DNA from: a virus
Virus record (IMG/VR): IMGVR_UViG_3300032053_012801
Length of the DNA stretch: 64,000 nt
Strand: one strand, 5' to 3'
How positions within the stretch are numbered: position 1 is the stretch's first letter; each line of letters begins with the position of its first letter. Shown here one piece after another: positions 8,761-40,968 of the stretch. The notes beneath the pieces were generated by a model. It searched no databases and was not told where the DNA came from. It saw only the letters and a program-made list of their open reading frames with translations. The translations under genes were made by a program, and so were the position numbers.

Positions 8761-8771
8761 GATTGTTCAAT

Positions 8772-8806
8772 AAAAAAGCCTCGTCGAAGTTAATCGGCGA
8801 GGCTTT
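8772..8806. terminator. bidirectional rho-independent terminator hairpin
   Basis: aaaaaa-GCCTCG-tcgaagttaat-CGAGGC-ttt: a GC stem flanked by an A-run and a T-run. Confidence 0.5.
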
Positions 8807-21260: not shown

Positions 21261-21270
21261 ATAAATTCAG

Positions 21271-24614: not shown

Positions 24615-25031
24615 CTAACGACTCATAGACTTTGCTTGTTCTAAAGCTGCCCAGTACCCTTTATTACTTGATTGTAGTTTGCACAGTCTCTCAATGGCAC
24701 TGATAATCATGGCCTTATTGTCATTATTCAACATGCCTCTTCCGATCATAGCATAGCCGAAACCTTTCATCAAATCTTCACCTGTAGGCCCACTTTCATG
24801 TATTTCTAGAAGTTCCACATCAGTTGGGTCGCGATACTTAGTACCCTGAAAGAAACTTGGGTTCTTGTTAGTAGCTACCAAATCAAGATTTTCTTGTTTT
24901 CCTGCAACAGCAGTGTTATCCTTAAGTTCAAATGGTACGCCTTGCAACTTGACTAATGATCCTTTGTTTAGCATCAAGTCGTCTAAAGCGACTTTCAAAA
25001 ACTCCTTCTGAATTTTTGCAATATGTTTCAT
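24615..25031 (-). CDS. MKHLA-module paralogue D
   Basis: MKHIAKIQKEFLKVALDD..., with an AAGGA RBS. Confidence 0.45.
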   Translation of the reverse strand: MKHIAKIQKEFLKVALDDLMLNKGSLVKLQGVPFELKDNTAVAGKQENLDLVATNKNPSFFQGTKYRDPTDVELLEIHESGPTGEDLMKGFGYAMIGRGMLNNDNKAMIISAIERLCKLQSSNKGYWAALEQAKSMSR

Positions 25032-27331: not shown

Positions 27332-28495
27332 TTATGCTTTTATGACAGCTAATGGTGAAAGTTCTACTACAATATCCACCAAATCTTTTTGATTGTCCAT
27401 AACAACACTTATGTCTTTGTAAGCACCGGCAGCTTCATCTAAGTCAGCTTTATTTCGAATGGCATGAATGATGCCTTGATCATCAAGTAGTTTCTTTTCG
27501 GCATCTAAATTCAATTCTCTTTGTGCTTGTTTCCGTCCCATTTTTCTACCAGCACCGTGCGAGCATGACATGAATGAATCTTCATTACCTTTGCCACGTA
27601 CTACATAGCTTTTTGTACCTTGAGAACCGGGTATCAATCCGATTTGATCTTTTCTGGCTGATGTCGCACCTTTTCTGTGAACAATGACATCTTCACCAAA
27701 ATGATGTTCCCAAGCTGCATAATTGTGATGAATGTTGATTGTTTCATCAAACGTAATTCCTGAAATATCAAAAGATTGTTTTATTGTGTCAATCATTCGA
27801 AATCTGTTCTCTTTTGCAAACTCAAGTGCAAACTTCATGACATCAAAGTATTCATGTGCTTCTTTTGTTTCCATTGGAAGAAACGAAAGGTCTTTGTCGG
27901 GTATACTCGAATACCATTTCTCGCATAGCCATTGTGCTTTCTTATGATATTCATTGGCTATTTTCAAGCCAAAATTCCGAGAACCAGAATGTAGCATGAC
28001 CCAAACAAAACCATCTGATCCCTTTTGAATCTCAATGAAGTGATTGCCACCTCCTAGCGTACCAAGCTGAGTCTGTGCTGTACTCAATTGCTGTTGAATA
28101 ATTGCTACATTAGGTGCTCGATCAAACCCTTCCCACGATATTTTCTCTTTGTGATGTTCGAATCCTACAGGGACTGCTTCACGAATCCTTCCCATTGTCT
28201 TTTTCAATTCATCTTTGTCAATTGATTGCAATGACGTCTTAACTGCACACATGCCGCAACCAATGTCAACACCAACAGCATTTGGAACTATGACGCCTTT
28301 GGTTGCCATAACGCCGCCAATTGGCATCCCGTAGCCAACGTGCCCGTCAGGAGACAAAGAAATATGACTAAATACAAAAGGTAATATTGCCAAATTCTCT
28401 ACTTGTTTAACCATTGCATCATCAGCATAATAGCTACTTTCGTTCATCCAGACTTTTACTGGCACACGAAATTGATCTTTTTTATATGAAAACAT
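27332..28495 (-). CDS. rtcB: RtcB-family RNA-splicing ligase (3'-phosphate/5'-OH RNA ligase)
   Basis: PDGHVGYG, DIGCGMC, GGGNHF, HNYAAWEHH, HRKGATSA and SHGAGR: the full set of RtcB metal- and GTP-binding motifs. Confidence 0.9.
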   Translation of the reverse strand: MFSYKKDQFRVPVKVWMNESSYYADDAMVKQVENLAILPFVFSHISLSPDGHVGYGMPIGGVMATKGVIVPNAVGVDIGCGMCAVKTSLQSIDKDELKKTMGRIREAVPVGFEHHKEKISWEGFDRAPNVAIIQQQLSTAQTQLGTLGGGNHFIEIQKGSDGFVWVMLHSGSRNFGLKIANEYHKKAQWLCEKWYSSIPDKDLSFLPMETKEAHEYFDVMKFALEFAKENRFRMIDTIKQSFDISGITFDETINIHHNYAAWEHHFGEDVIVHRKGATSARKDQIGLIPGSQGTKSYVVRGKGNEDSFMSCSHGAGRKMGRKQAQRELNLDAEKKLLDDQGIIHAIRNKADLDEAAGAYKDISVVMDNQKDLVDIVVELSPLAVIKA

Positions 28496-29368
28496 TCATT
28501 TCTCACTTTCTAAAAACATTATCATTTTGTCTGTCACACTTTTAATGTCATTTTTAATTTCATCTTCCCAAAAATACAGAAACTTATAACCCTTACTTTC
28601 TAAATAACGCGCTCTTTCTAAATCTTTTAGTCGTTTTACTTCATCATTTGATGAATTATGATATTTTGGATTCTTGTGCCAATAATCACCATAGCACTCT
28701 ATTATTAGCCTCTTATACACTAAAAAGTCAACATTGTATTTACCAATTTGAGTGTTCCTCTTATAGTCATCAACTTCTTTTAATCCAAGAAATAGCAAAA
28801 CTGAATTAATAGTTTCTTCTATTGAAGTTTTTGAATGTTTAGCTGTGCCCGCGCAAATCCAATTTATTAAAATCTGCCATCTTTTCTCATTACTGTAATT
28901 TTTCCAATTTTCAACATGTGACTGACTCATAAGTTGTAATGAGTCAGTTGAATGCGTCTTATTAAAGAAACTGTTATTTTCTCCCGAGCAATCATAATGA
29001 TTCTTCTTCATTTGCTCGCGAGCTTTTAACGAATGCTTTTTATTATAAAAATTGTTACGTTCTCCTAATTGAACGCATGACTTACACAATCCTGACGCTT
29101 TTGGGCCCGGCCTCCTCTTCAACTGCTTGCCACAATCTAGACAAAAGCTTTTTACTAATTTTCGTCCTATCCATCGTCCATTCTTTTCGTCTTTACAAGC
29201 ATAAGAATTTAGAACGTCATCATCAGCAATCTTAGTTACACCATGCTTTTTCTTGTACTCTCTAACACTCAATCCACAACATGACTGTAAATGTCTATAA
29301 ACTATTGCCCTAACCACTTTATTACATTCAAGACAAATCACGACTTGTTCCAACAAGAATAGAGTCAA
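28496..29368 (-). CDS. DUF559/Vsr-like endonuclease-domain protein with N-terminal zinc fingers (homing-endonuclease-like)
   Basis: Several Cx2C pairs, then ...IIECYGDYWHKNPKY...RYLESKGYKFLYFWEDEI (ExDGxxWH core). Confidence 0.5.
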   Translation of the reverse strand: MTLFLLEQVVICLECNKVVRAIVYRHLQSCCGLSVREYKKKHGVTKIADDDVLNSYACKDEKNGRWIGRKLVKSFCLDCGKQLKRRPGPKASGLCKSCVQLGERNNFYNKKHSLKAREQMKKNHYDCSGENNSFFNKTHSTDSLQLMSQSHVENWKNYSNEKRWQILINWICAGTAKHSKTSIEETINSVLLFLGLKEVDDYKRNTQIGKYNVDFLVYKRLIIECYGDYWHKNPKYHNSSNDEVKRLKDLERARYLESKGYKFLYFWEDEIKNDIKSVTDKMIMFLESEK

Positions 29369-29537: not shown

Positions 29538-29972
29538 TTATACATTTTTGAGTCCAACTAGAGCAGGATCAGGAATTGGTATGTTAATTCCTATTGGCCG
29601 CCACAAATGTAAACAATGAGGATGTTGGTTTACATATAGACTTTTGGGAGGATGAAATTGAAAAACTGCATCTTCTTGATCCCAAAATAGATCTTTGACT
29701 TCACTCATTTCAATCCAATTTGGACATCGATTCTTCAATGACACTGAAACGTGCTCCCAACCATAACCGTCACTAGCTATAGCAAACACTGTCATGCAGT
29801 TTGTAGTTGGCACAAAAAATGCGCCATTGTTACCATCCGAGTCTTCGCTCGTATATGGATGATTTTGCTTTCGAAATCTATACAGATTTGGTACGTGAAA
29901 CATGCTTTGTCCAAGTATTGAAATTACAAGTCTTGTATAGAAAAAGAATAATATCGACGACTTCTTTGTCAT
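29538..29972 (-). CDS. hypothetical protein
   Basis: 144-aa ORF. Confidence 0.35.
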   Translation of the reverse strand: MTKKSSILFFFYTRLVISILGQSMFHVPNLYRFRKQNHPYTSEDSDGNNGAFFVPTTNCMTVFAIASDGYGWEHVSVSLKNRCPNWIEMSEVKDLFWDQEDAVFQFHPPKSLYVNQHPHCLHLWRPIGINIPIPDPALVGLKNV

Positions 29973-30549
29973 CTCCGTACTTTGTATACAGCATGCTTTT
30001 CAAATCCGGTTGTTCAATTTTATCAGATCCGTCTTTGATTTCTGTTTTTCTGTTGTTAAAAGCATCCACAAAATCACAAATAGATATGATTGTTGAAATT
30101 TCCAAAACTTTTTTGATAGTTGACGGTGACCAATTCTCAGGAAAAGCATTTCGATCTAAACCGTAACCTGCTTTGTAAAGATTATGATGCAAACCTGCAC
30201 AAAGAGCCGTGAACATGTGCAGCTTCTTGAGAGCCTTGTAGCCTGCTTGGGCATGAGTTTTTACATTATCGTATTCTACTGCATCTATGTTATGTCCGTC
30301 AAATAACTGAGCTGGCAGTAAAAGTTTGCCGGCATCATGTAGAAGACCTGCAAAAAAGGCAGCTTTTGCATCTTTTCGCAGTTTCTTTGCTGTTGCTTCT
30401 GCAAGCAGTGCTACTCTTTCCAAATGATCTTTTGTAGAAACATGATTCACATCACACATGGCCAGAATTAAACGAGCAGTGTGTGCAAGATCGCCTTTTG
30501 GATTGTACGCTCGAATTTTTGATTCGATTAGAGTAGATCGCTTCATCAA
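29878..30549 (-). CDS. HD-domain phosphohydrolase
   Basis: ...AGLLHDAGK... and HHN..YKAGYG: the HD motif. Confidence 0.55.
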   Translation of the reverse strand: MMKRSTLIESKIRAYNPKGDLAHTARLILAMCDVNHVSTKDHLERVALLAEATAKKLRKDAKAAFFAGLLHDAGKLLLPAQLFDGHNIDAVEYDNVKTHAQAGYKALKKLHMFTALCAGLHHNLYKAGYGLDRNAFPENWSPSTIKKVLEISTIISICDFVDAFNNRKTEIKDGSDKIEQPDLKSMLYTKYGDDKEVVDIILFLYKTCNFNTWTKHVSRTKSV

Positions 30550-31067: not shown

Positions 31068-31239
31068 TATCTACACCTTTCAAAAATTCTGTATAACATC
31101 GCGCAGAACAGCATCTGTGATTTGCTGGTATGTCTCCGTATACACGCGTCGATTCTTTGACATTGAATGATTTACTGCAGACTCTACAGCTTATGTTTTT
31201 AGCCATAGTATAATAGTCAATTAGAATAGCTATGAAAAA

Positions 31240-31311
31240 TGCCTCGAGCCAGATTTGAACTGGCGATAACGGTTTTAGAGACCGTCACTTTGACCGCTAA
31301 GTTATCGAGGC
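31240..31311 (-). tRNA. suppressor tRNA (anticodon CTA, reads UAG amber)
   Basis: Reverse complement reads GCCTCGA-TA-ACTT-AGCGGTCA-AAGT-G-ACGGT-CTCTAAA-ACCGT-TATC-GCCAG-TTCAAAT-CTGGC-TCGAGGC-A. This is a clean class I cloverleaf with anticodon 5'-CUA-3' at positions 34-36. Confidence 0.75.
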
Positions 31312-31318
31312 ATTTCCA

Positions 31319-31702
31319 TCATGCAAGCGGTAGAGATTTGAAAATCTCACCAGTGTCATAACAAGCTACAGCTGTTGGTCTATTGTCTTGATCTGGTTCA
31401 ATAAATGTCGCAGACAATTTATTTTGCAAACACAAAAGACTTGACCAATGTTCGATTCCACTTGCAAAGCGGACACTCAAAAATATCAAATGCCCATTAT
31501 TCCACTGGCGAAATACCTCAGGATATCTCAATGCGAATTGCGCTAATGCATGAGTACCTTGCACACATCTGTATGTCTCGGCAAGATCACTACGCACAAG
31601 CACATACATCTTTGGCTTGTCCATGTTGGATCTCCCGGATAAATTGTTGAACAATGTCCATGTTCGGCTCATTACCTTCGCGAGGCTTTTCAATACGCTC
31701 AT
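31319..31702 (-). CDS. hypothetical protein
   Basis: 127-aa ORF. Confidence 0.4.
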   Translation of the reverse strand: MSVLKSLAKVMSRTWTLFNNLSGRSNMDKPKMYVLVRSDLAETYRCVQGTHALAQFALRYPEVFRQWNNGHLIFLSVRFASGIEHWSSLLCLQNKLSATFIEPDQDNRPTAVACYDTGEIFKSLPLA

Positions 31703-31883
31703 ACGGCGTTCCTCTCAGAATACAATACGCAATATGTTTGAGCCGAATATGACTTTTCATTATGTGCAATTGACATTGCTTTAATGCGCTTGCAGCATCA
31801 TGAGGTTTTGAAAGTTCGACTTTAGTCTGTCGAATCTCGAGGGCTTTAGTCTTGAGTTCATTCTTAAGAATTGTCAAATCCAT
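31590..31883 (-). CDS. hypothetical protein
   Basis: 97-aa ORF overlapping the downstream gene. Confidence 0.3.
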   Translation of the reverse strand: MDLTILKNELKTKALEIRQTKVELSKPHDAASALKQCQLHIMKSHIRLKHIAYCILRGTPYERIEKPREGNEPNMDIVQQFIREIQHGQAKDVCACA

Positions 31884-32023
31884 GATATACTCCTAGTTTA
31901 TTGTTGTTTGTTGACAGACAATTAACGTAGAAGTATATCAGGCGGTGCTCGTATGTGCACCTATGTGAAGCCGATAATCTACAACATAGCTACATCCTTA
32001 TTGAAAAACTTCATGATTCCATG

Positions 32024-32323: not shown

Positions 32324-32393
32324 TTCATTTTCTCCTTACATAGAATGATAGAAAATTCCAATATACGATTAATCATGCCAATTGTCAATGAAA

Positions 32394-32466
32394 AGCCGCC
32401 AAGAGGATTTGAACCTCCGACCTACTGCTTACGAAGCAGTTGCTCTACCAACTGAGCTATAGCGGC
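32394..32466 (-). tRNA. tRNA-Thr (anticodon CGT)
   Basis: Reverse complement reads GCCGCTA-TA-GCTC..GAGC-A-ACTGC-TTCGTAA-GCAGT-AGGTC-GGAGG-TTCAAAT-CCTCT-TGGCGGC-T. Confidence 0.8.
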
Positions 32467-32473
32467 ACTTATA

Positions 32474-32548
32474 TGGAGACGACAGGGAGATTTGAACTCC
32501 CGATAACAGTTTTGCAGACTGCTGCCTTACCAGCTTGGCTATGCCGTC
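32474..32548 (-). tRNA. tRNA-Cys (anticodon GCA), U73, CCA encoded
   Basis: Reverse complement reads GACGGCA-TA-GCCA..GGC-A-GCAGT-CTGCAAA-ACTGT-TATC-GGGAG-TTCAAAT-CTCCC-TGTCGTC-T-CCA. Confidence 0.85.
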
Positions 32549-32551
32549 ACA

Positions 32552-32941
32552 TTAATTGTGCAAAAACAATTTCACGAATTCCTTTGGTGGTACAATACCA
32601 TGTCGATGAGCACTTACATCAATTAACGTGACTGTATGTTGCTCGTCTACGTGGTGTCCTGCGAATGAGTTTGCACCGTAGAATTCAAAAAATGCCACGA
32701 CCTTCTCGTACCGCTGTGCCCTAAAAATCTTTGAGAGTTCGTCTCCATATTTATGTTTGACGAGTTCGTCTGCTTTACTGAGCCACGGCTGGTCAGTACC
32801 GAGCAGTCTTGTTCTACTACCGAATTTCCAGAAGCCTTTTTTTGGATGCCACTCCGCTCGAATATTCGAGCCATCAAGTTTGTCGAACGCATACGCTTGA
32901 ACCGATCGTATATCATGTGAAATTGACGGATACTGTTTCAT
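32552..32941 (-). CDS. RNA ligase-like nucleotidyltransferase N-terminal domain (second Rnl paralogue, short, possibly truncated)
   Basis: AFDKLDGSNIRAEWHPKKGFWKFGSR: KxDG motif I in the same context as ORF 1547..2173. At 129 aa it ends at the tRNA-Cys boundary. Confidence 0.4.
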   Translation of the reverse strand: MKQYPSISHDIRSVQAYAFDKLDGSNIRAEWHPKKGFWKFGSRTRLLGTDQPWLSKADELVKHKYGDELSKIFRAQRYEKVVAFFEFYGANSFAGHHVDEQHTVTLIDVSAHRHGIVPPKEFVKLFLHN

Positions 32942-33288
32942 CTGTGCATTCCGCCTTTCATTACTGTTTCTGCACAGCCTGCAACTATCATTGTAAAATA
33001 GTCAAATGATTCAAATGTTCTTTCTTTAAGATCATCAAGTTTACTCAAGATCTTTGTTACTTGATGTTTCTCTAATAGCAACGGTATCTTCTTGGACTTC
33101 ATTCCGCAATGCACATGCATCTGTAACATGTCATTCATTGACTGAAATGATATATTTACTGTTTCATTTTCTACAATGAAGTCCAATTTATCCTCATCTT
33201 CTATGTCAAACTTCCGACCGCAATTGCCACACTTATTACAATCAATTGTGTCATACACACAACCATCACTTTTATCGTCTATCCACAT
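32938..33288 (-). CDS. hypothetical Cys-rich protein (start trimmed; the track ORF N-terminus reads through tRNA-Ser)
   Basis: The internal Met at 33288 (MWIDDKSDGCVYDTIDCNKCGNCGRKF...) avoids overlap with the tRNA at 33309-33393. Confidence 0.35.
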   Translation of the reverse strand: MWIDDKSDGCVYDTIDCNKCGNCGRKFDIEDEDKLDFIVENETVNISFQSMNDMLQMHVHCGMKSKKIPLLLEKHQVTKILSKLDDLKERTFESFDYFTMIVAGCAETVMKGGMHR

Positions 33289-33308
33289 CAGATCCTCAAA
33301 GACTAGAA

Positions 33309-33393
33309 TGGCGGAGAGTGCCGGATTCGAACCGACAAGACCTTTCGGTCGGCAGTTTAGCAAACTGCTGAGATACCATTACTCCAACTCTCC
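33309..33393 (-). tRNA. tRNA-Ser (anticodon GCT), type II, CCA encoded
   Basis: Reverse complement reads GGAGAGT-TG-GAGT..TCTC-A-GCAGT-TTGCTAA-ACTGC-(variable arm GACC-GAAA-GGTC)-GTCGG-TTCGAAT-CCGGC-ACTCTCC-G-CCA. Confidence 0.85.
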
Positions 33394-33615
33394 GTAACGT
33401 TTTTCTTGCATTGTTTTCTCACCAAAATACTTTCTCGGATTGCCGCACCCGCTACATGAACAAGTCTTTGTAGTATTTCTTCGCATCTGTTCTGCTCTTG
33501 CAACCCATTCAGGATGCTCTAACTTCGTAAGATACGTGTAAAAGTTAGTTACGCGTTTCTTACTCTTCTTGACCCCAACAAGAAAGCGATCTCTCTTGCT
33601 AACCGGATGCGACAT
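33379..33615 (-). CDS. hypothetical basic protein with CSCSGCGNP motif
   Basis: 78-aa ORF. Its start region overlaps the tRNA-Ser 5' end by ~15 nt, so the true start may be internal. Confidence 0.3.
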   Translation of the reverse strand: MSHPVSKRDRFLVGVKKSKKRVTNFYTYLTKLEHPEWVARAEQMRRNTTKTCSCSGCGNPRKYFGEKTMQEKRYGELE

Positions 33616-33689
33616 GATGACTCCTTTGTTAGCGCCACTAAGTGCGCATTGGTTTGGACGTCATCATATCTCCTTTCAGTTAAAAAAAA

Positions 33690-33766
33690 TGGCTGGCCCG
33701 GTAAGGTTTGAACTTACGACCTAGCGGTTAACAGCCGCTCGCTGCTGCCAGCTGAGCTACGGGCCA
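33690..33766 (-). tRNA. tRNA-Asn (anticodon GTT), CCA encoded; D-arm irregular
   Basis: Acceptor TGGCCCG/CGGGCCA. Anticodon stem AGCGG/CCGCT with loop CTGTTAA. T-arm GTAAG-TTCAAAC-CTTAC, then G-CCA. The D-loop is unusually long. Confidence 0.6.
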
Positions 33767-33771
33767 ACAAA

Positions 33772-35013
33772 TCATGCAACTAATGGCTGACGAGAAGGCA
33801 CTCGAACCCCTAAGCGGTTGCCCGCACAGCATGTCATATATCTATTCACGAGCCGTCTAACTTGTGTATGTGAGACATTCCATTTATTACTAAGATTTTC
33901 GACTGTGCCACGCTTTGTAAAATCACTTTGTAAAATGTCTTTAGTTTGTTGTGCAGTTCTAGCTTGTTGCTCTAGCTTTTTTATTTGTTGCTTTTCAATT
34001 TTTAATTGATCACGATTTATTTCAAACTCTGTCAATAGTTGTAACCGTCTAGCTTGTGCTTTAGTGAAAGTATCTAGTCTTAATTCAAAGTTTTGTGAAT
34101 TATTCAAAATGTCTTTAATTTCATCATAAATTACTTCATGATTATGATGCACATCTTTCCATCTTATCCTTAAAACTTTAATGTCATGATTTTTCAAATA
34201 TTCATCTTTTCGTTTATCTCGTTCTCGTATTACATCATATTTTACATGTTGTTCACCATCAATCTCAATTACAAGTTTATGTTTTGGAAAATAAAAATCT
34301 GCTCTATAAATAGAAAATGGAAATTCTGTAAAAAAATCAACATTTTCTTTCAATCCTAACTTAACTAAAAATTCGTGAAATTTACTTTCAGCATATGATG
34401 GCTTCTTTCTTGTCCAACTATAAGCAATTCCATTTTGTCTAGCTTTTAATATTGATTGTCTAATCTTATCTTTTGTTGCTTTAGAAAGCTTAAATGTCTC
34501 TGGATGATTTTTATATCTAGCTTTAATAGAATCAGACAAAGATCGTCTTTTATGACTTAATGAAAAACTAATGACCCTTTTGTCATATCCTTTCGCTCTT
34601 ATATCCCTTGGTGATAAGCCTAGATTATATAACTTGATTATACTTTCACGAACTTCTTCACTTACACAAGTATGTTTATAAAGATTTACAACACTAATTG
34701 TTCTTTTACATTTTTCACACATCACTTTCTTAGCAAAATTACTATTGATATTATGATATTTTTTTCTATTAGGGTTTGTATGGGCAATTTTATTTGTCTC
34801 GCTATCACTTCGTAATATGTCTTTGACAACTGCATGAATTTCATTTCTTGTGAAACAATATTTTTTCTTGATATCTGAAATTAACAACTTATTTTTATAA
34901 TCTGATCTAATGAGTTCACATTCTTTTGGATGCTTAACATAAAGACAACTATTACGATGAATAGCATGCGCTCCTGCATTTTTGAATGATTTACCGCATT
35001 TACATATGTTCAT
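33772..35013 (-). CDS. DUF559/Vsr-like endonuclease-domain protein with zinc fingers and coiled-coil tail (homing-endonuclease-like)
   Basis: ...KLVIEIDGEQHVKYDVIRERDKRKDEYLKNHDIKVLRIRWKD... The C-terminal ~25 codons (..NRLGVRVPSRQPLVA) are GC-rich and look like translation of a tRNA-derived remnant. Confidence 0.5.
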   Translation of the reverse strand: MNICKCGKSFKNAGAHAIHRNSCLYVKHPKECELIRSDYKNKLLISDIKKKYCFTRNEIHAVVKDILRSDSETNKIAHTNPNRKKYHNINSNFAKKVMCEKCKRTISVVNLYKHTCVSEEVRESIIKLYNLGLSPRDIRAKGYDKRVISFSLSHKRRSLSDSIKARYKNHPETFKLSKATKDKIRQSILKARQNGIAYSWTRKKPSYAESKFHEFLVKLGLKENVDFFTEFPFSIYRADFYFPKHKLVIEIDGEQHVKYDVIRERDKRKDEYLKNHDIKVLRIRWKDVHHNHEVIYDEIKDILNNSQNFELRLDTFTKAQARRLQLLTEFEINRDQLKIEKQQIKKLEQQARTAQQTKDILQSDFTKRGTVENLSNKWNVSHTQVRRLVNRYMTCCAGNRLGVRVPSRQPLVA

Positions 35014-35084
35014 AATATACTCCTTGTTAGTACATTACGAACTATCAATACAAGATAAAGTCTAGAACTTGACCGCATGAAGAA

Positions 35085-35156
35085 TGGAGACTGACAGTAT
35101 CGAGCTGTCCTCTAGTGGGCTTCAACCACTCGCTAATCCATCTCAGCTAAGTCTCC
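35085..35156 (-). tRNA. tRNA-Phe (anticodon GAA), atypical T-loop
   Basis: Reverse complement reads GGAGACT-TA-GCT-GAGATGGATT-AGC-G-AGTGG-TTGAAGC-CCACT-AGAG-GACAG-CTCGATA-CTGTC-AGTCTCC-A. Confidence 0.55.
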
Positions 35157-35613: not shown

Positions 35614-36294
35614 ATGGCAACTCCTGTTATTACTGGTCAAAGAGTTAGTCCGATTGTTTCAGGAAAAAACAAGACATTAGTAGTTCATTTGGTAGATCTA
35701 TTCACTGATGATCCTGATTTTCCTGATGGTAGTGGAAAAGATTGGGTGATTGAAGGTCAAGCTGGAGCTCATTATGCAGTGAATCAAGATTCAGGTATAG
35801 TAGAAGAATTTGACGTCATTCCTACAACTAGTTATGTTGGTTCATTATCCGTCGCTGTTAGAATTAGTAATGACGGTGGTTCAACATGGAGTGATTGGTT
35901 TGGTCTTAGTGTATCAGTTGTTGAGATGCCTGTTATTTCAAATCAGACTAGTTTTCCTAAGTTGTACATTGGTTCATATCTTACCATAGCTCTTAACAAT
36001 TTGATTGTTACTACTAGTAAGATATATCCTCAACAATTCACACTATTAGCTTCTACTGGTATAGGATACTCGATAATTTCATCAACCAGTACATCAGTGA
36101 AGATTTTAATTGAAGGTAGTTTGTCAACTACTTCACGATCAATACCTGTACGAGTGAATGATGGATCAATTTGGAGTGATGCTTACAATTATATCGTTAA
36201 TGTTGTTGCAAAACCTGCAACTGGCAGACCTGCAGCAATGGGAGTTAGTATAACTGCACCGTCACCGTTTGAGCAGCCTTTTAGAAGAGTGTAA
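35614..36294 (+). CDS. Ser/Thr-rich protein, first gene of the plus-strand operon (candidate glycosylation substrate or surface protein)
   Basis: 226 aa, about 30% Ser/Thr, with repeated S/T-x-S/T runs (ISSTSTSVKILIEGSLSTTSRS). No enzymatic motif. Confidence 0.45.
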   Translation: MATPVITGQRVSPIVSGKNKTLVVHLVDLFTDDPDFPDGSGKDWVIEGQAGAHYAVNQDSGIVEEFDVIPTTSYVGSLSVAVRISNDGGSTWSDWFGLSVSVVEMPVISNQTSFPKLYIGSYLTIALNNLIVTTSKIYPQQFTLLASTGIGYSIISSTSTSVKILIEGSLSTTSRSIPVRVNDGSIWSDAYNYIVNVVAKPATGRPAAMGVSITAPSPFEQPFRRV

Positions 36295-36361
36295 CTAATT
36301 CATAAATTTGAAAAAGCTGATGACATAGAATATGTTATCAGCTTTTTTTTTGATCTCTTAG

Positions 36362-37414
36362 ATGAAAATTATGATACCGAAAAAAGTACTAATTGGTAAT
36401 GATCCTTGGAGTACTGATTTACTAGATTTCATTAAATCTGGTCCTCATTATTTGACCGCGCAGCAATGGCAAGAAAATATTGACATACCTTTAGAATCTA
36501 CTTTCTATTACAAATGGTTAATGTCAATGTTTATAGCTGACAATGTTGTGTGGGGCGGAATATTGAAAAATGAAGATGACATTGTGAAGCAATGTGCTAG
36601 ATATAGAGCTATGTATTTGATAGCTCCTAAGTGGCAAGAGGAATATAGCATATTGCAAACTGATACGAATTCTGCGCACTATTATGGATATAGACCTGTG
36701 AAAGTTCGCTGTAATGGCGCCATTGACATTTGGGATGGCATGCATAGAATAAGCTTATTGACTTTCAAGCGGTTGCCTATAGAAGTTACAATATGTGAGC
36801 GATTACCGGGATGGGCTGAACTATACAAAGAAATTGAAGATTTGTATCCTAACAAAATGCTATATCAGCCGATACCGCATCCTGACTTTAGTGACTGGGC
36901 CACAGCAATTGACGGTAACAAAGAGCAAATTATCTGCGACTTCTTCAAACAAAACAAGATTGACAGCGTATTAGATTTGGGTACTTGTCACGGTTTCACT
37001 CTTTACAAACTAAAAGATCTGATTAAGCATGGTATAGGCATTGAATCTGACAAAATTAGATTTCAAATAGCAAGTATACTGCTAAACAAAATAGGGTTTT
37101 CTTGTCATAATACAAATGCAATAGACTACATTGAGACTAGTGAAAGTGCAGATTGCACATTGTGTCTAGCAATACTGCATCATATATCGAGATTATGTCC
37201 TATAGAAGTGTTTGAAAAATTCTTGCAAACAGTAGCACAAAAGACTAAGTTTATAATCTATACATTACCAAATCCGAATGAAGATCAGTTCTCATGGATG
37301 TATGAATCTAAAAGAGACAATTTTGACGAGTACATATTGCAATTGACAGGCTTCAAAACTAGAGAAGTAATAGTTAGTTCTAGAGAAATTAGAATATTAG
37401 AAAAGAACCTATAA
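36362..37414 (+). CDS. ParB/Srx-like N-terminal domain fused to class I SAM-dependent methyltransferase
   Basis: IWDGMHRISLL (ParB-like DGxHR) in the N-terminal half. VLDLGTCHGFTL (MTase motif I) in the C-terminal half. Confidence 0.45.
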   Translation: MKIMIPKKVLIGNDPWSTDLLDFIKSGPHYLTAQQWQENIDIPLESTFYYKWLMSMFIADNVVWGGILKNEDDIVKQCARYRAMYLIAPKWQEEYSILQTDTNSAHYYGYRPVKVRCNGAIDIWDGMHRISLLTFKRLPIEVTICERLPGWAELYKEIEDLYPNKMLYQPIPHPDFSDWATAIDGNKEQIICDFFKQNKIDSVLDLGTCHGFTLYKLKDLIKHGIGIESDKIRFQIASILLNKIGFSCHNTNAIDYIETSESADCTLCLAILHHISRLCPIEVFEKFLQTVAQKTKFIIYTLPNPNEDQFSWMYESKRDNFDEYILQLTGFKTREVIVSSREIRILEKNL

Positions 37415-38226
37415 TGTACGGCGTAACATACGATCAAGAAAATAGCACATTAAGTCTTGACAAACATGATTGTGGTTTGTTATCTAATGCTAGCGTGACA
37501 TTTAAGAGTCTACTATCGATACACAAAAATGCGTCAAGACTTGTGAAAATATTATGGCCATATACGTCAGCTTGGAACAAGCCTGACAGATTGAGTCGAA
37601 ATGTTTATGATCTATATTTTACGACAGTTAACAGTGATATTAAGACAGGACAAGACATTTATTTTAATGCAATGATTGGTGATTGTAATAAGTTTGATTT
37701 TAGTGTACTAAAACCAATTAGAGATACATATTTCAATTTGTCTAGTGAAGTAATAGTTAAACAAGAATCATTTATTCAAAAGTACAGTATAGATTTTGAT
37801 CACACTATTGCAATTCTTTATAGAGGTACTGATAAAATTCTTGAAGTGCCAAGAGTGCATCCAAAGTATTATTTGAAACCAATCAGTCCGATTAAGGACA
37901 TTTCAAATTATAGGGTACTTATACAGACAGATCAACAACAGGCATTAGACTATTTCAAACACGAGTTACCTAATTCGTTTCACATTGAAGAAATGCCGTT
38001 GACAAAAACAGATCAAGTGATGCATAATTTACAACGTGATACAAAAATGAGTAATTACGATTTGGGTGTCAATTATTTGGCTGCGATTGCTATTTTGAGT
38101 AAGTGTAAGTATGTAGTTTATGATACTAACAATGCAGGCTTATGGATATGTATTTTACGAGGTGACATTAATAACACGTGTCAAATACATGCAAGCGTTA
38201 ACACAATGAATAGATTTGAGTACTAA
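37414..38226 (+). CDS. hypothetical protein (operon member, translationally coupled)
   Basis: 270-aa ORF with ATGA start/stop overlap with the upstream gene. Confidence 0.4.
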   Translation: MYGVTYDQENSTLSLDKHDCGLLSNASVTFKSLLSIHKNASRLVKILWPYTSAWNKPDRLSRNVYDLYFTTVNSDIKTGQDIYFNAMIGDCNKFDFSVLKPIRDTYFNLSSEVIVKQESFIQKYSIDFDHTIAILYRGTDKILEVPRVHPKYYLKPISPIKDISNYRVLIQTDQQQALDYFKHELPNSFHIEEMPLTKTDQVMHNLQRDTKMSNYDLGVNYLAAIAILSKCKYVVYDTNNAGLWICILRGDINNTCQIHASVNTMNRFEY

Positions 38227-38928
38227 ATGTGTAAAGAGCTGTACTTAGATTTGCTGAAGCGATCGTTGCTTGACATAATATATGAAGAAGAGACGACTCA
38301 TACAACTAATGGTACGTATTGGCCTAAGCGAGCGTTCACTATGATAGGCCGTAAACGACTTGACAATATACAACATTGTGTCGAAAGTGTTATAGCAAAT
38401 GATGTGCAAGGTGATCTAATTGAAACCGGTGTGTGGCGTGGTGGTGCTGTAATTTTTATGCAAGGTATTTTGAAAGCATACAATATTACAGATCGAAAAG
38501 TGTTTGTAGCTGATTCTTTTCAAGGTTTGCCTGCGCCTAATACAGAAAAGTATCCAATTGACAAGAATAGTACTATGCATACCATTGACTATTTAAGAGT
38601 TGATGTTGATCAAGTAAAGCATAATTTTGAAAAGTATGCATTACTAGACACTAATGTAGTATTTCTAAAGGGTTGGTTCAAAGATACTCTTACAAATAGT
38701 ATGATAGATAAAATTGCTGTATTGAGATTAGATGGTGACTTATATGAGTCAACTTGGGATTCATTAACTGCGTTATATCATAAAGTCCAGAAAAATGGGT
38801 TCGTTATTATTGATGATTATAACTGGGTAAATTGCAGAACAGCTGTTGAAGATTTTAGAAAACTACATAATATTCACGATCCGATCGTCATTATTGACGC
38901 TTGGGGAGCATACTGGAAAAAATCATGA
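38227..38928 (+). CDS. TylF/MycF-family (macrocin-O-methyltransferase-like) sugar O-methyltransferase
   Basis: LIETGVWRGGAVIFM...LRLDGDLYEST is the diagnostic TylF/MycF pattern. Confidence 0.6.
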   Translation: MCKELYLDLLKRSLLDIIYEEETTHTTNGTYWPKRAFTMIGRKRLDNIQHCVESVIANDVQGDLIETGVWRGGAVIFMQGILKAYNITDRKVFVADSFQGLPAPNTEKYPIDKNSTMHTIDYLRVDVDQVKHNFEKYALLDTNVVFLKGWFKDTLTNSMIDKIAVLRLDGDLYESTWDSLTALYHKVQKNGFVIIDDYNWVNCRTAVEDFRKLHNIHDPIVIIDAWGAYWKKS

Positions 38929-39503
38929 ATAGAACAGACATCATCAATTTCTACACAAGCAAAAAACAAAATTGTCGTTATCTTGAAATAGGCATTGGAA
39001 ATGCATCTGCCAATTTCAACAAAATTAGTGCTGCAGTAAAAGATGCAGTTGATCCTGTAAATCCCTGTAATCATCTTATGAGTTCTGATGCATTTTTCTC
39101 AAGTAATACTAGTCAATACGATATCATTTTTATAGACGGCGATCACAAAGCAGCTCAAGTGATCAAAGACATTTCAAATTCACTAAAATGTTTGAGTACT
39201 GACGGAATTATACTTTTACATGATTGTAATCCTGAATTAGAAGTTCATCAAACAGAGAACATTACTGTGTCTCATTGGAACGGATCAGTTTGGAAAGCAA
39301 TATTGTTTTATAGAATGTTTGATCCTAATTTGTCAATCTGTACTATTGATGTAGATGAAGGCATTGGAATTATAAAGCCAGGACAGCAAGAATTATTTGA
39401 ATGTGCTGAAACAATGTTTGATTTTGCTTTTCTTTGTAAGTATAGAAAGCAAATACTCAATTTACTAACTGTGCAAGAGTGGCAATTGATGGAGCAACGA
39501 TGA
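38901..39503 (+). CDS. class I SAM-dependent methyltransferase (CmcI/O-MTase-like)
   Basis: YLEIGIGNASANF (motif I) and IIFIDGDHK (motif II-like). Confidence 0.5.
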   Translation: MGSILEKIMNRTDIINFYTSKKQNCRYLEIGIGNASANFNKISAAVKDAVDPVNPCNHLMSSDAFFSSNTSQYDIIFIDGDHKAAQVIKDISNSLKCLSTDGIILLHDCNPELEVHQTENITVSHWNGSVWKAILFYRMFDPNLSICTIDVDEGIGIIKPGQQELFECAETMFDFAFLCKYRKQILNLLTVQEWQLMEQR

Positions 39504-40438
39504 TCTATACTATGTCTTATTGGCATTGGTATAAGTACTGTAGTATTGAAGTCAAAAATATTACAGCAGATGTTGAACCAAGTAAAGATGATTGGTTTGT
39601 AGTATTTCAACCTTATGATGCTGCTCGCAGAGAACTAGTATCAGCAGTCATTGACAGATTTGACTATTCAAAACGAGTATTGATTCATTACGAGGGTCGT
39701 TATCGTCAGCCTCATGGATTTAGACTAAGATATCAGCAAAAGTTTGGAAGAATCTATACTTATAATTCGACTGATGTTGATGGTGACACTGTTAAATATA
39801 TGCCGATACCGATGTGGATTACTGAAGATGAATGTTGTCCAGTCAATAACCGATCAAAATTCATTGGTACTGTTATAACCAACTATTTTCGTGATGGTGA
39901 GCCAAGAAACACTATAATTCGCAAGTTCAAAGATTTGGGTATGGATGTTTATGGAAGTTCAGATAAACCAGTACCATTAGAAATTAAGAAAGATTCTAGT
40001 GATGCTTGCGACAAAAACTTACCGCGATATTCTGCTAAAGTGAAACTGCTATCAGACTATACGTTTGCTTTTGCTATAGAAAGTCAATTAGATTTGGGTC
40101 ACTTGACTGAAAAACCGTTCGATTTGATAGCAGCTGGTTGTATACCTGTTTATTTAGGGCCAAAAGATGCGTCAACATTTATTCCTAAAGAGTGCTACGT
40201 TGATTACAGAGATTTCTGGTCTGAAGCTGATCTAATGAAATATCTTAAAAGCATGTCGCGACAAAAAATTCAAGAGTATCAGCAATCAATTGCAAAACAT
40301 CAAAAAGTCTTAGTTGGTATGAGAACTTTTGAGTCATGCATGAGATTTCTATGTAAAGACTTAGGATTTGACTGTCAGTCACATTATCACGATCAATTAT
40401 TAGAACTGTCAAATATACTTGCAACAAGGACAAAATAA
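39479..40438 (+). CDS. GT10-like glycosyltransferase (alpha-1,3-fucosyltransferase-like)
   Basis: FAFAIESQLDLGHLTEKPFDLIAAGCIPVYLGP resembles the GT10 AFENS...TEK...G.VPVV motif block. Confidence 0.45.
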   Translation: MAIDGATMIYTMSYWHWYKYCSIEVKNITADVEPSKDDWFVVFQPYDAARRELVSAVIDRFDYSKRVLIHYEGRYRQPHGFRLRYQQKFGRIYTYNSTDVDGDTVKYMPIPMWITEDECCPVNNRSKFIGTVITNYFRDGEPRNTIIRKFKDLGMDVYGSSDKPVPLEIKKDSSDACDKNLPRYSAKVKLLSDYTFAFAIESQLDLGHLTEKPFDLIAAGCIPVYLGPKDASTFIPKECYVDYRDFWSEADLMKYLKSMSRQKIQEYQQSIAKHQKVLVGMRTFESCMRFLCKDLGFDCQSHYHDQLLELSNILATRTK

Positions 40439-40968
40439 TGAAGTTACATTTAGGTTGCGGCAAACGATATATCCCTGGCTATACGCACATTGATGTTATA
40501 GAATACCCTCATATTGATATAGTGAATAGTGTTGATCGTCTACCAATGATTGAAGATGAATCATGTGATGTAGTTTATAGTTGTCATGTATTAGAGCACT
40601 TTCACAAAAAAGTCATTATAGATGTTCTTCATGAATGGTTAAGAGTGCTAAAAGTAAATGGTACATTGAGAATATCTGTGCCAGATATGCAAAGTCTACT
40701 TAAAGTATATGAGAAAACAGATGATATTTCATTAATACTAGGCCCTATATTTGGTAGGTGCAATTACTTGTACAATTTTCACTATACAGGATTTGACTTT
40801 AAGTCTTTGAAACATGTACTTGAATTAGCAGGTGCAAAAGATATTAGACGTTATGATTGGAGACTAACAGAGCATGCAGATGTTGATGACTACAGTCAAG
40901 CATATATTCCACAAGATAAAATAAATGGAACTCTTATTAGCTTAAATGTAGAAGCGACAAAAGTATGA
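40438..40968 (+). CDS. class I SAM-dependent methyltransferase (Methyltransf_11-like)
   Basis: HLGCGKRYIPGYTHID...SCHVLEHF. Confidence 0.5.
   Translation: MKLHLGCGKRYIPGYTHIDVIEYPHIDIVNSVDRLPMIEDESCDVVYSCHVLEHFHKKVIIDVLHEWLRVLKVNGTLRISVPDMQSLLKVYEKTDDISLILGPIFGRCNYLYNFHYTGFDFKSLKHVLELAGAKDIRRYDWRLTEHADVDDYSQAYIPQDKINGTLISLNVEATKV

What the first reader, a model, noticed from the sequence alone, without database searches (positions are those of the whole stretch)
31240..31311. Apparent amber-suppressor tRNA (anticodon CUA)
This is a well-formed class I cloverleaf with every stem Watson-Crick paired. Positions 34-36 are 5'-CUA-3' in a canonical 7-nt loop, with U33 and A37. That anticodon decodes UAG.

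TAG is used as a normal stop in this window, for example at gene 24615-25031. The tRNA could therefore promote read-through of host or phage TAG stops, support stop-codon-recoded late genes elsewhere in the genome, or act against hosts that use UAG stops. Its amino-acid identity is not obvious from the sequence (A73, G1-C72, D-loop AGCGGUCA).
Basis: seen in the sequence. Interest (0 to 1): 0.7.

Follow-up and report, generated by a model that had tools for sequence, protein, structure and literature searches.

The report
Conserved phage amber-suppressor tRNA
This is a genuine tRNA gene that reads the UAG stop codon; a lineage of very large phages keeps it next to a small tRNA-processing enzyme gene, yet the parts of these phages we could read still use UAG as an ordinary stop.

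Summary
A canonical 72-nt class I tRNA with anticodon CUA lies at 31240-31311 on the minus strand (ARAGORN; Rfam tRNA model 69.3 bits, E 5e-13).

It is not a sequencing error or a chance fold. Eight further lineages carry a tRNA(CUA) at the same position. Across these nine distinct sequences U33-C34-U35-A36 never varies, and 21 of 22 stem pairs show compensatory changes.

In 9 of 12 lineages examined, the tRNA lies directly after a conserved ~101-aa gene. The gap is 6-8 nt in eight lineages and about 33 nt in one. I show that this gene has the peptidyl-tRNA hydrolase 2 (PTH2) fold. It is preceded by a conserved ~97-aa ORF.

The window is a tRNA and translation island of an uncultured huge phage. 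It holds 30 tRNAs plus RtcB, an RNA ligase, a Thg1-like protein, a second PTH2 and a trigger-factor-like protein.

I found no sign of TAG recoding:
- TAG ends about 27% of window ORFs.
- Orthologues swap TAG with TAA or TGA at the same protein end.
- Giant baseplate and tail genes are intact in the standard code on a related contig that carries the same tRNA.

The amino acid it carries is unresolved. The acceptor stem is Phe-like, the body resembles Phe, Trp and Cys tRNAs, and it is least like Gln.

Verdict: a real, selected amber-suppressor tRNA and a new member of a known kind. It has an undescribed PTH2 linkage and an unknown target.

The parts
31240..31311 (-). tRNA gene with anticodon 5'-CUA-3' (reads UAG). 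It is 72 nt, class I, has a 4-nt variable loop and no encoded CCA.
   Evidence: ARAGORN; Rfam RF00005, 69.3 bits; sequence read; covariation across nine lineages.
31319..31624 (-). Conserved ~101-aa ORF with the peptidyl-tRNA hydrolase 2 (PTH2/Bit1) fold. Its TGA stop lies 7 nt before the 5' end of the tRNA. The mechanical ORF runs to 31702, but homologues start at the internal Met (MDKPKMYVL...).
   Evidence: 46 homologues of ~96-104 aa. Pfam PF01981 scores above its cut-off for member P0036 and is a consistent sub-threshold hit for five others, with no hit for the window protein itself. A profile search hits a PDB peptidyl-tRNA hydrolase at E 2.9e-4. The AlphaFold2 model has pLDDT 96.5. The top 15 Foldseek hits include the annotated Pth2/Bit1 structures (S. 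solfataricus Pth2, human Bit1, A. fulgidus AF2095); the rest are structural-genomics entries that I know to be Pth2-family but which the tool output does not name as such. TM-scores are 0.62-0.83 over the 15, and 0.74-0.83 for the top 12.
31590..31883 (-). Conserved ~97-aa ORF of unknown function. It overlaps the start of the PTH2-like ORF and is the first gene of the conserved three-part module.
   Evidence: Orthologues of 96-99 aa sit in the same position in L001, L150, L151, L152, L156, L159 and L161; identity is 40-49% between lineages and 95% to the nearest relative. No Pfam hit.
31932..31959 (-). Sigma-70-like promoter candidate (TGCACA-16-TATACT with an upstream TG) just upstream of the 97-aa ORF. 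It could drive the transcript of 97-aa ORF, PTH2-like ORF and tRNA.
   Evidence: Consensus scan only. No terminator-like site lies between it and the tRNA.
32360..32388 (-). Near-consensus sigma-70-like promoter candidate (TTGACA-17-TATATT, 11 of 12) further upstream, just after tRNA-Thr(CGU).
   Evidence: Consensus scan only.

Best explanation
This is a functional amber-suppressor tRNA kept by selection in a lineage of uncultured huge phages that otherwise use the standard code.

**Shown**
- It is a canonical tRNA whose CUA anticodon and CUCUAAA-type loop never vary, while all four stems change by compensatory substitutions.
- It is the last element of a conserved module: a 97-aa ORF, then a PTH2-fold ORF, then the tRNA(CUA) 6-8 nt later in eight lineages (about 33 nt in one).
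- The module lies inside a tRNA, tRNA-repair and translation island.

**Inferred**
- The tRNA is transcribed as the 3' end of the mRNA of the two small ORFs, from a sigma-70-like promoter. It is then cut out by host RNase P and 3' processing.
- It receives CCA after transcription, because none is encoded.
- A host synthetase charges it; which amino acid is unresolved. The A36-A37-A38 loop suits i6A37-type modification, as in efficient UNN-reading tRNAs.
- It then competes with release factor 1 at UAG.

**Likely consequence**
- No in-frame TAG exists in any gene we could read, and TAG ends about a quarter of the phage's own ORFs.
- Genome-wide recoding is therefore unlikely.
- More likely it gives partial read-through of UAG. 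That would mean short C-terminal extensions (median 14 codons here) on some phage and host proteins, or decoding or rescue of a few TAG codons in unseen genes.
- The linked PTH2-like esterase would plausibly recycle peptidyl-tRNA released during such events. That last step is speculation.
For: **The tRNA is real**
-.

**Conservation and selection**
- Syntenic tRNA(CUA) genes are at L001:10391-10465, L149:412-485, L150:10297-10370, L152:10314-10387, L156:10317-10390, L159:10322-10397, L161 and L162:10314-10387, and L164:7759-7831.
- The neighbouring protein is only 41-94% identical across these lineages.
- Alignment A7 shows 21 of 22 pairs with compensatory changes, U33-C34-U35-A36 invariant, and 0 of 500 shuffles as good.

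**Module**
- The gap between the ORF stop and the tRNA is 6-8 nt in the window, L001, L149, L150, L152, L156, L159 and L161/L162, and about 33 nt in L164.
- The PTH2 fold is supported, and the conserved 97-aa ORF.
- Downstream genes differ between lineages, so only the three-part module is conserved.

**Standard code**
- 28 of 103 window ORFs of at least 60 aa end in TAG, or 33 of 112 at 50 aa or more.
- Orthologues exchange TAG with TAA or TGA at the same C-terminus. The DNA ligase ends in TGA in the window, TAG in L017 and TAA in L018.
- The 1185-aa and 2157-aa structural ORFs end in TAG in contig 1 and in TAA in L144.
- Contig 1 (IMGVR_UViG_3300035659_001474, which is JGI Ga0373628_0000101) carries the suppressor. 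Its ORFs of 1193+, 1889, 494, 1181 (baseplate J/wedge) and 2156 aa are intact in the standard code.
- Open-frame coverage under the standard code is 0.70-0.99 in all loci, and generally rises no more when TAG is made sense than when TGA or TAA is.

**Context**
- Sigma-70-like promoter candidates lie upstream and no terminator-like site is found.
- The surrounding island holds 30 tRNAs, RtcB, an HD protein, an RNA ligase, a Thg1-like protein, a second PTH2 and a trigger-factor-like protein.
Against: - No target for the suppressor was found, so the functional part is inference.
- There is no excess of back-up stops after TAG and no bias in the base after TAG, as one might expect if read-through were frequent and costly.
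- Expression, processing, charging and decoding were not tested.
- Capsid, portal, terminase and lysis genes of this lineage were never reached, so limited recoding is not excluded.
- The adjacency with PTH2 could be inherited synteny or shared transcription without functional coupling. It is absent in 3 of 12 lineages (L151, L163, L165).
Confidence: 0.5

Rival explanations
1. The tRNA is the decoding component of partial stop-codon recoding (a code-15-like scheme). In-frame TAG codons would sit in late genes, especially lysis, capsid or terminase genes, outside the window. The early-expressed suppressor would license their translation and so time the late programme.
For: This is the established role of phage tRNA(CUA) in crAss-like, Lak and other recoded phages. 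In those phages the replication genes stay in the standard code, and the suppressor is encoded in standard-code regions (bioRxiv 10.1101/2021.08.26.457843, read; PMC13037316). The anticodon is deeply conserved. A distant relative of the PTH2-like gene, on a 410-kb rumen scaffold (L165), has an in-frame TAG inside that gene and almost only TAA stops, so recoding may exist in the wider group.
Against: TAG is a common, interchangeable stop in this lineage, whereas recoded phages and their close relatives are depleted in the recoded stop. About 24 kb of baseplate and tail genes on the contig that carries the same tRNA have no in-frame TAG, and two of them end in TAG. No RF2 or aminoacyl-tRNA synthetase gene was found among the window ORFs scanned.
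Confidence: 0.25
2. The suppressor is aimed at the host or at competing phages. By reading through UAG it would perturb termination of host or rival genes, or it would serve as insurance against amber mutations in a large AT-rich genome, with no dedicated target codons.
For: No dedicated target was found. The tRNA lies in an early-type island with other takeover and translation genes. The mutational-insurance idea is discussed for standard-code phages that acquire suppressors.
Against: The phage's own genes use TAG heavily, so it would suffer the same read-through. The host is unknown. The idea cannot be tested here, and it does not explain the tight linkage to the PTH2-like gene.
Confidence: 0.15
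3. The tRNA-shaped RNA does not decode UAG. It could be a decoy or substrate for host anticodon nucleases or for the phage tRNA-repair enzymes, an mRNA 3'-end processing signal for the PTH2-like transcript, or a tRNA whose C34 is modified so that it reads another codon.
For: RtcB, an RNA ligase, an HD protein and a Thg1-like protein are nearby. The tRNA lies 6-8 nt after the ORF stop in eight lineages (about 33 nt in the ninth), so RNase P cleavage would define the mRNA 3' end.
Against: A processing signal or decoy would not need an invariant CUA anticodon in a standard 7-nt loop with U33 and, in eight of nine sequences, A37-A38. All elements needed for EF-Tu and ribosome use are kept. No TilS-like gene was seen. 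In L163 a different tRNA (Ala) follows the homologous ORF, so the processing role, if any, is not specific to CUA.
Confidence: 0.07
4. The finding is an artefact, a decaying pseudogene, or a one-base sequencing error in a sense tRNA.
Against: Independent assemblies from JGI, ENA, Logan and GTDB sources all have CUA at the same position. Covariation is strong.
Confidence: 0.01

Closest known systems
Phage-encoded suppressor tRNA(CUA) of stop-codon-recoded phages (crAss-like, Lak, other gut and jumbo phages; Borges et al., bioRxiv 10.1101/2021.08.26.457843; PMC9523058; PMC13037316)
   Same: It is a phage-borne tRNA with anticodon CUA, encoded among standard-code early genes in a large, tRNA-rich, low-GC phage genome. 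Host synthetases are presumed to charge it.
   Different: Here TAG is a frequent and interchangeable stop (27-29% of window ORFs). No in-frame TAG occurs in the window, nor in about 100 kb of its closest relatives plus about 70-80 kb around the module in more distant ones; the close-relative sequence includes baseplate and tail genes. No RF2 or synthetase gene is nearby. The tRNA is not Gln-like, whereas those systems are read as TAG to Gln. The tight linkage to a PTH2-fold gene did not come up in the papers I read or in one literature search.
Standard-code phages that have acquired a suppressor tRNA (the Agate-clade example in Borges et al., proposed as a step before code change)
   Same: A suppressor tRNA is present without detectable recoding.
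   Different: That example is a TGA suppressor in a genome where the matching stop is nearly lost (4 of 146 genes), and it looks recent. Here the suppressor is ancient within its lineage (neighbouring protein down to 41% identity), and its stop codon is not depleted in the window.
Classical bacterial amber suppressors (E. coli supE Gln, supF Tyr, su7/supU Trp-derived, and the engineered tRNA-Phe(CUA) of Normanly et al. 1986), cited from my own knowledge
   Same: It has a CUA anticodon in a loop with U33, A37 and A38. The anticodon arm ACGGU-CUCUAAA-ACCGU is almost that of a Trp tRNA with C35U: the window's own tRNA-Trp reads CGGUCUCCAAAACCG. The acceptor stem plus A73 is the one typical of bacterial tRNA-Phe.
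   Different: It is not a one-step mutant of any sense tRNA seen in the window or its relatives. It is a stable, conserved gene rather than a laboratory or sporadic mutant. It lacks the supE features (U1-A72, G73, G2-C71, G3-C70) and the long variable arm of bacterial Tyr, Leu and Ser tRNAs.
tRNA-Pyl (the label ARAGORN prints)
   Same: Only the CUA anticodon.
   Different: It has a canonical D-loop with G18-G19, a TΨC-type loop, a 5-bp anticodon stem and a 4-nt variable loop. No pyl genes were found among the ORFs scanned. It is not a Pyl tRNA.

Membership tests
tRNA (Rfam RF00005), class I cloverleaf | Covariance-model score above the gathering threshold over the full model | tested here: met
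   69.3 bits against 29, model positions 1-71 of 71.
tRNA (Rfam RF00005), class I cloverleaf | 7/4/5/5-bp stems and conserved core bases (U8, A14, G18-G19, U33, G53-U54-U55-C56, A58, C61) | tested here: met
   Read directly from the sequence and from the ARAGORN drawing.
tRNA (Rfam RF00005), class I cloverleaf | Structure kept by compensatory substitutions in homologues | tested here: met
   21 of 22 pairs have double changes; 96% of cells are paired against 68% in shuffles and 34-45% in slid controls.
Amber-suppressor tRNA | Anticodon 5'-CUA-3' at positions 34-36 of a 7-nt loop with U33 and a purine at 37 | tested here: met
   The loop is CUCUAAA in the window. U33-C34-U35-A36 is invariant in nine lineages.
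Amber-suppressor tRNA | Is aminoacylated and inserts an amino acid at UAG in vivo | not testable with these tools
   Needs a reporter assay, tRNA-seq or mass spectrometry.
Stop-codon-recoded (code-15-like) phage system | In-frame TAG codons in real genes, with better gene models when TAG is sense | tested here: not met
   None found in the window. Two mechanical candidates appeared. One (47152-48006) was rejected because the two ORFs lie in different frames in the relative L148. The other (plus-strand 8240-8773) overlaps a minus-strand HNH gene and tRNA-Met. None found in relatives, including the tail module of contig 1. The rest of the genome was not seen.
Stop-codon-recoded (code-15-like) phage system | The recoded codon is depleted or absent as a terminator | tested here: not met
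   TAG ends 28 of 103 window ORFs and 10-30% in relatives that carry the module. It is swapped with TAA or TGA in orthologues.
Stop-codon-recoded (code-15-like) phage system | Accessory code-change genes (RF2, a cognate synthetase) near the suppressor | tested here: not met
   No such Pfam or PHROG hits among about 60 window ORFs scanned.
supE-type tRNA-Gln(CUA) | Gln tRNA body: U1-A72 (or a weak 1-72 pair), G73, G2-C71, G3-C70. These are E. coli GlnRS identity rules, from my own knowledge. | tested here: not met
   The window tRNA has G1-C72, C2-G71, C3-G70 and A73. Gln is among the least similar isotypes in nearest-neighbour comparisons, and the Gln tRNAs of related phages look different.
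tRNA-Pyl | Atypical fold: 3-nt variable loop, 6-bp anticodon stem, short D-loop without G18-G19, with pylS and pylBCD genes nearby. From my own knowledge. | tested here: not met
   The cloverleaf is canonical. No pyl genes were found among the scanned ORFs.
PTH2 (PF01981) peptidyl-tRNA hydrolase, for the adjacent ORF 31319-31624 | Sequence match to the family model | tested here: inconclusive
   The window protein has no Pfam hit. Homologue P0036 scores 29.5 bits (cut-off 23), and five others give consistent sub-threshold hits from profile position 1-2. The family profile hits a PDB peptidyl-tRNA hydrolase at E 2.9e-4. hhalign against the window's other PTH2 is weak.
PTH2 (PF01981) peptidyl-tRNA hydrolase, for the adjacent ORF 31319-31624 | PTH2/Bit1 fold | tested here: met
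   The AlphaFold2 model has pLDDT 96.5 and pTM 0.88. The Foldseek PDB top 15 include the annotated Pth2/Bit1 structures (1xty S. solfataricus Pth2, 1q7s human Bit1, 3erj/1rzw A. fulgidus AF2095). The others (2zv3, 1wn2, 1rlk, 2gax) are structural-genomics entries that I take to be Pth2-family from my own knowledge. TM-scores are 0.62-0.83 with probability 1.00, and the next hits have probability at most 0.11.
PTH2 (PF01981) peptidyl-tRNA hydrolase, for the adjacent ORF 31319-31624 | Esterase activity on peptidyl-tRNA | not testable with these tools
   Invariant K5, D78 and T84 lie where I recall PTH2 catalytic residues to be. That mapping rests on my own knowledge, not on a test.

The most novel reading that the evidence does not exclude
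The 97-aa ORF, the PTH2-fold ORF and the tRNA(CUA) form a dedicated, conserved cassette. Standard-code huge phages would use it to loosen UAG termination on purpose. The suppressor would carry a non-Gln, possibly Phe-type, amino acid. The linked hydrolase and small protein would handle or regulate the resulting peptidyl- or aminoacyl-tRNA. That would be a read-through control system distinct from genome-wide recoding.
Probability: 0.15. Interest if true: 0.7.

Novelty: new member of a known kind. Interest (0 to 1): 0.42.

Why it matters
Phage suppressor tRNAs are usually read as a mark of stop-codon recoding, and annotation pipelines switch genetic code on that basis. This lineage has kept an amber suppressor over long divergence while continuing to use TAG as a common stop. 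That has two consequences:
- A tRNA(CUA) alone is a poor predictor of code 15.
- There must be another selective reason to keep one.

The conserved adjacency to a PTH2-fold enzyme gives a concrete two- or three-gene cassette. It could be cloned and tested with an amber reporter, with and without the neighbouring genes. If its body turns out to be orthogonal or to carry an unusual amino acid, it would add to natural suppressor tRNAs of interest for genetic-code expansion.

Tried and rejected
1. **In-frame TAG candidates in the window.**
   - The pair 47422-48006 (RNase H-like, ends in TAG) plus the in-frame ORF 47152-47421 was rejected. The RNase H-like domain is complete before the TAG, and in the relative L148 the two ORFs lie in different frames.
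   - The plus-strand stretch 8240-8773 lies opposite a minus-strand HNH gene and tRNA-Met.

2. **Read-through extensions after all 28 TAG-ending ORFs.** They are short and look non-coding. There is no excess of back-up stops.

3. **Homology screen for TAG aligned to sense codons across 23 loci.**
   - Almost all hits come from non-coding frames of conserved DNA.
   - The one credible case is in the distant scaffold L165, not in this lineage.

4. **Isotype assignment.**
   - The acceptor stem GCCUCGA/UCGAGGC with A73 belongs to tRNA-Phe in 119 of 127 metagenome matches. That search was selected on the acceptor stem itself.
   - Interior-only and whole-molecule nearest-neighbour tests give Phe, Cys, Trp, Thr and Lys within a few percent of one another. 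One apparent 0.8 match was a pattern-selected Phe that slipped through my filter.
   - BLAST against GenBank phages points to Trp and Cys tRNAs.
   - No firm call is possible.

5. **Searches for the tRNA itself.** Exact-pattern searches in IMG/VR found only one relative.

6. **Finding the source genome.**
   - Exact-protein look-ups found nothing.
   - The nearest GenBank phages are only about 30% identical at protein level: Bacillus phage G and huge uncultured phages.

7. **Walking along related contigs toward capsid, terminase and lysis genes.**
   - One homologue search returned nothing.

8. **HDV-like or theta ribozyme next to the tRNA.** No Rfam match.

Full report
**1. The observation**

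ARAGORN finds 30 tRNA genes in the window, all on the minus strand. One of them, at 31239-31312, has anticodon CTA. Rfam's tRNA model matches 31240-31311 (-) at 69.3 bits, against a gathering score of 29, with E 4.9e-13 over the full model. That ties for the second-best tRNA score in the window.

The minus strand reads GCCUCGA-UA-ACUU-AGCGGUCA-AAGU-G-ACGGU-CUCUAAA-ACCGU-UAUC-GCCAG-UUCAAAU-CUGGC-UCGAGGC-A.
- Every stem is Watson-Crick.
- CCA is not encoded.
- The 'Pyl' label is only the name ARAGORN gives to any CTA anticodon. The molecule has none of the atypical features of tRNA-Pyl.

**2. What the window is**

There is no nucleotide-level match in GenBank phages. At protein level the best matches are about 30% identical, to huge phages such as Bacillus phage G and uncultured 485-735 kb phages. 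GC content is about 37%.

The window is a tRNA and translation island (all genes below are on the minus strand):

| Gene | Coordinates |
|---|---|
| RNA ligase | 1547-2173 |
| Thg1-like protein | 5714-6424 |
| PTH2 with a zinc ribbon | 13973-14488 |
| Group I intron | 14756-14966 |
| RtcB | 27332-28495 |
| HD-domain protein | 29878-30549 |
| Trigger-factor-like protein | 62910-63995 |
| NAD-dependent DNA ligase | 59648-61600 |
| Pol X/PHP protein | 48962-50635 |

Several homing endonucleases lie between the tRNA genes.

**3. Conservation**

The ORF just upstream of the tRNA led to IMG/VR contig IMGVR_UViG_3300035659_001474 (128 kb, 'contig 1'). It has the same gene order (Phe, Ser, Cys, Thr, ORF, tRNA-CUA). 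The flanks and acceptor stem are identical, and the anticodon is still CUA, although the D, anticodon and T arms are largely different (68% identity).

A search of the large protein collection with the upstream ORF gave 46 homologues of about 96-104 aa. I looked up their contigs.

| Locus | Source or protein | Gap from ORF stop to tRNA(CUA) |
|---|---|---|
| window | this window | 7 nt |
| L001 | contig 1 | 6-8 nt |
| L149 | P0001, 94% identical | 6-8 nt |
| L150 | P0004, 64% | 6-8 nt |
| L152-L155 | P0018, 56% | 6-8 nt |
| L161, L162 | P0009, 59% | 6-8 nt |
| L156-L158 | P0034, 47%, includes a 373-kb contig | 6-8 nt |
| L159, L160 | P0042, 46% | 6-8 nt |
| L164 | rumen contig binned in a Bacillota MAG, 41% | about 33 nt |

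The tRNA is absent after the homologue in L151, L163 (where an Ala tRNA follows instead) and L165. So 9 of 12 lineages have the pair.

Nine distinct suppressor sequences were aligned (A7).
- 21 of 22 pairs carry compensatory double substitutions.
- 96% of cells are paired, against 68% in shuffles (0 of 500 shuffles reach this) and 34-45% when partners are slid.
- U33-C34-U35-A36 is invariant.

This excludes a sequencing error and shows selection on both the fold and the anticodon.

**4. The linked genes**

The upstream ORF most likely starts at the internal Met, giving 31319-31624 and 101 aa.
- Pfam PTH2 (PF01981) scores above its cut-off for one family member and gives consistent sub-threshold hits for five more. 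The window protein itself has no hit.
- A profile of the family finds a PDB peptidyl-tRNA hydrolase at E 2.9e-4.
- An AlphaFold2 model built on the 41-sequence alignment has pLDDT 96.5.
- Its best 15 Foldseek matches in the PDB include the annotated Pth2/Bit1 structures (S. solfataricus Pth2, human Bit1, A. fulgidus AF2095). The remainder are structural-genomics entries that I know to be Pth2-family but which the tool output does not name. TM-scores are 0.62-0.83 (0.74-0.83 for the top 12) with probability 1.00, and there is a sharp drop afterwards.

A second ORF of about 97 aa (31590-31883), with no recognisable family, overlaps the start of the PTH2-like ORF. It is conserved in the same place in seven relatives.

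Genes downstream of the tRNA differ between lineages. The conserved unit is therefore the 97-aa ORF, the PTH2-fold ORF and the tRNA(CUA).

Sigma-70-like promoter candidates lie at 31959-31932 and 32388-32360 on the minus strand, and no terminator-like site precedes the tRNA. These are consensus matches only. They fit co-transcription, with the tRNA cut from the 3' end of the mRNA.

**5. Is TAG recoded?**

*Within the window*
- A greedy non-overlapping ORF set ends in TAG in 33 of 112 cases (ORFs of at least 50 aa) or 28 of 103 (at least 60 aa).
- Making TAG sense raises open-frame coverage less than making TGA or TAA sense does.
- Only two mechanical in-frame-TAG candidates exist. The only one on the coding strand is 47422-48006 followed by 47152-47421. 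It is a coincidence: the RNase H-like domain is complete before the TAG, and the two ORFs lie in different frames in contig 1.

*Across relatives*
- Orthologues swap stop codons at the same protein end. The DNA ligase ends in TGA in the window, TAG in L017 and TAA in L018; several other pairs behave the same way.
- Walking along contig 1 reached a structural block with ORFs of 1193+, 1889 (Ig-like repeats), 494, 1181 (baseplate J/wedge; phrog_6, E 1e-23; named baseplate J/gp47 by sources), 2156 and 962 aa.
- All are intact in the standard code. Two of them end in TAG where their orthologues end in TAA.
- Contig 1 carries the suppressor, so its tail and baseplate module is not recoded.
- Loci around the module in the more distant relatives also use TAG as a stop, in 10-21% of ORFs.
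- There is no excess of back-up stops after TAG and no bias in the following base.
- Extensions after TAG look non-coding.

*Limit*
- Capsid, portal, terminase and lysis genes were not reached.

**6. Amino-acid identity**

- The acceptor stem plus A73 is the one found in bacterial tRNA-Phe(GAA) in 119 of 127 metagenome matches to that stem. That search selected on the stem itself.
- The window's anticodon arm equals that of its own tRNA-Trp apart from C35U. Its variable loop and T arm resemble its own tRNA-Cys.
- The body of the contig 1 copy resembles phage tRNA-Trp genes, with the D arm GUUC-AAUUGG-GAAC and the variable loop GUGUU.
- Some copies resemble the lineage's own tRNA-Phe, including an unusual A53-U61 pair.
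- Nearest-neighbour scoring ranks Phe first on average, but only by a few percent over Lys, Thr, Cys and Trp. Gln is near the bottom.
- C2-G71 is invariant, and G1-C72, C3-G70 and A73 are each present in 8 of 9 sequences.

By E. coli identity rules (my own knowledge), it lacks the features of Gln, bacterial Trp (G73), and the class II Tyr, Leu and Ser tRNAs. I leave the identity unresolved. It is not a simple supE-type Gln suppressor.

**7. Comparison with what is known**

Phage suppressor tRNAs, including CUA in jumbo phages, are well described as agents of TAG-to-Gln recoding of late genes. In those phages the recoded stop is depleted, and RF2 or synthetase genes sometimes accompany the tRNA. 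Occasional standard-code phages that have acquired a suppressor are also reported (bioRxiv 10.1101/2021.08.26.457843; PMC13037316; PMC9523058 and PMC10879173, listed).

This tRNA belongs to that kind. It differs in four ways:
- Its lineage keeps TAG as a common stop.
- No recoded gene was found, even among tail genes.
- The tRNA is not Gln-like.
- It is tightly and anciently linked to a PTH2-fold gene. That link did not appear in the papers read or in one literature search on it.

**8. Verdict**

This is a new member of a known kind, with a side finding worth following up: the conserved module of 97-aa ORF, PTH2-like ORF and tRNA(CUA) in phages that appear to use the standard code. Its target and its amino acid remain unknown. 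Interest is moderate.

Noticed in passing
window 21270-21360 (-): A 91-nt tRNA with a long, stem-forming variable arm (class II shape, as in bacterial Leu, Ser and Tyr tRNAs) but with anticodon UUU (Lys). Rfam scores it at 52.8 bits. If it is charged according to its body rather than its anticodon, it would misread AAA/AAG codons.
   Followed up: no
window 1547-2173, 5714-6424, 13973-14488, 27332-28495, 29878-30549, 62910-63995 (all -): A dense set of tRNA and translation genes surrounds the 30 tRNAs: an RNA ligase, a Thg1-like 3'-5' nucleotidyltransferase, a second PTH2 fused to an NrdR-type zinc ribbon, RtcB, an HD phosphohydrolase and a trigger-factor-like chaperone. Relatives have a trigger-factor homologue about 86 aa longer at the N-terminus, so the real start probably lies beyond the window end.
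   Followed up: partly
L165:9953-10303 (ONIZ01000001.1, 410-kb scaffold labelled 'uncultured Firmicutes bacterium RUG343'): The PTH2-like homologue on this rumen scaffold has one in-frame TAG, aligned to Lys in L164. The locus uses TAA for 23 of 26 stops and carries 13 tRNAs and a tmRNA. It may be a TAG-recoded huge phage binned as a bacterium, and a distant relative of the module described here.
   Followed up: partly
window 32394-35156 versus L001:7889-9156: The syntenic tRNA genes of the window and contig 1 are only 61-86% identical (Phe 61%, Ser 64%, Cys 80%, Thr 86%). Neighbouring proteins are mostly about 70-99% identical. The Phe tRNAs even have different acceptor stems. tRNA genes in this lineage seem to be replaced or to diverge much faster than their surroundings.
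   Followed up: partly
window 14756-14966 (-): A group I intron match (Rfam RF00028, 53.6 bits) lies between the PTH2 gene and tRNA-Met(CAU) at 15179-15255. I did not determine which gene it interrupts.
   Followed up: no
window 4785-5717 (+), 8068-8679 (-), 28496-29368 (-), 33772-35013 (-): Homing-endonuclease-type genes (DUF559/Vsr-like with NUMOD3, and HNH) are scattered between the tRNA genes. Several have no counterpart at the same place in contig 1, which suggests mobile insertions in the tRNA island.
   Followed up: no
window 35614-44976 (+): This is the only plus-strand block. It holds a TylF-like O-methyltransferase, other methyltransferases, a GT10-type glycosyltransferase and a 1128-aa radical-SAM/glycosyltransferase fusion. 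Most of its ORFs are 82-99% identical to contig 1. It looks like a sugar- or glycan-modification cassette.
   Followed up: no
window 47152-48006 (-): An RNase H-like ORF (194 aa) ends in TAG and is followed immediately, in the same frame, by an 89-aa CxxC...CxxC ORF. It looked like a read-through fusion, but the two ORFs lie in different frames in contig 1.
   Followed up: yes
proteins P0055 and P0075; L164 and L165: Contigs of this huge-phage group are deposited inside MAGs labelled Nitrosarchaeum, Nanoarchaeia, Bacillota and Firmicutes. These are probably binning errors and should not be read as host assignments.
   Followed up: no
L150:13671-14915, L161:11325-12533, L162:7816-8988, L018:8401-9459: IS605 OrfB/TnpB-type (Cas12f-like) transposase genes are inserted at different places close to the suppressor module in several relatives.
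   Followed up: no
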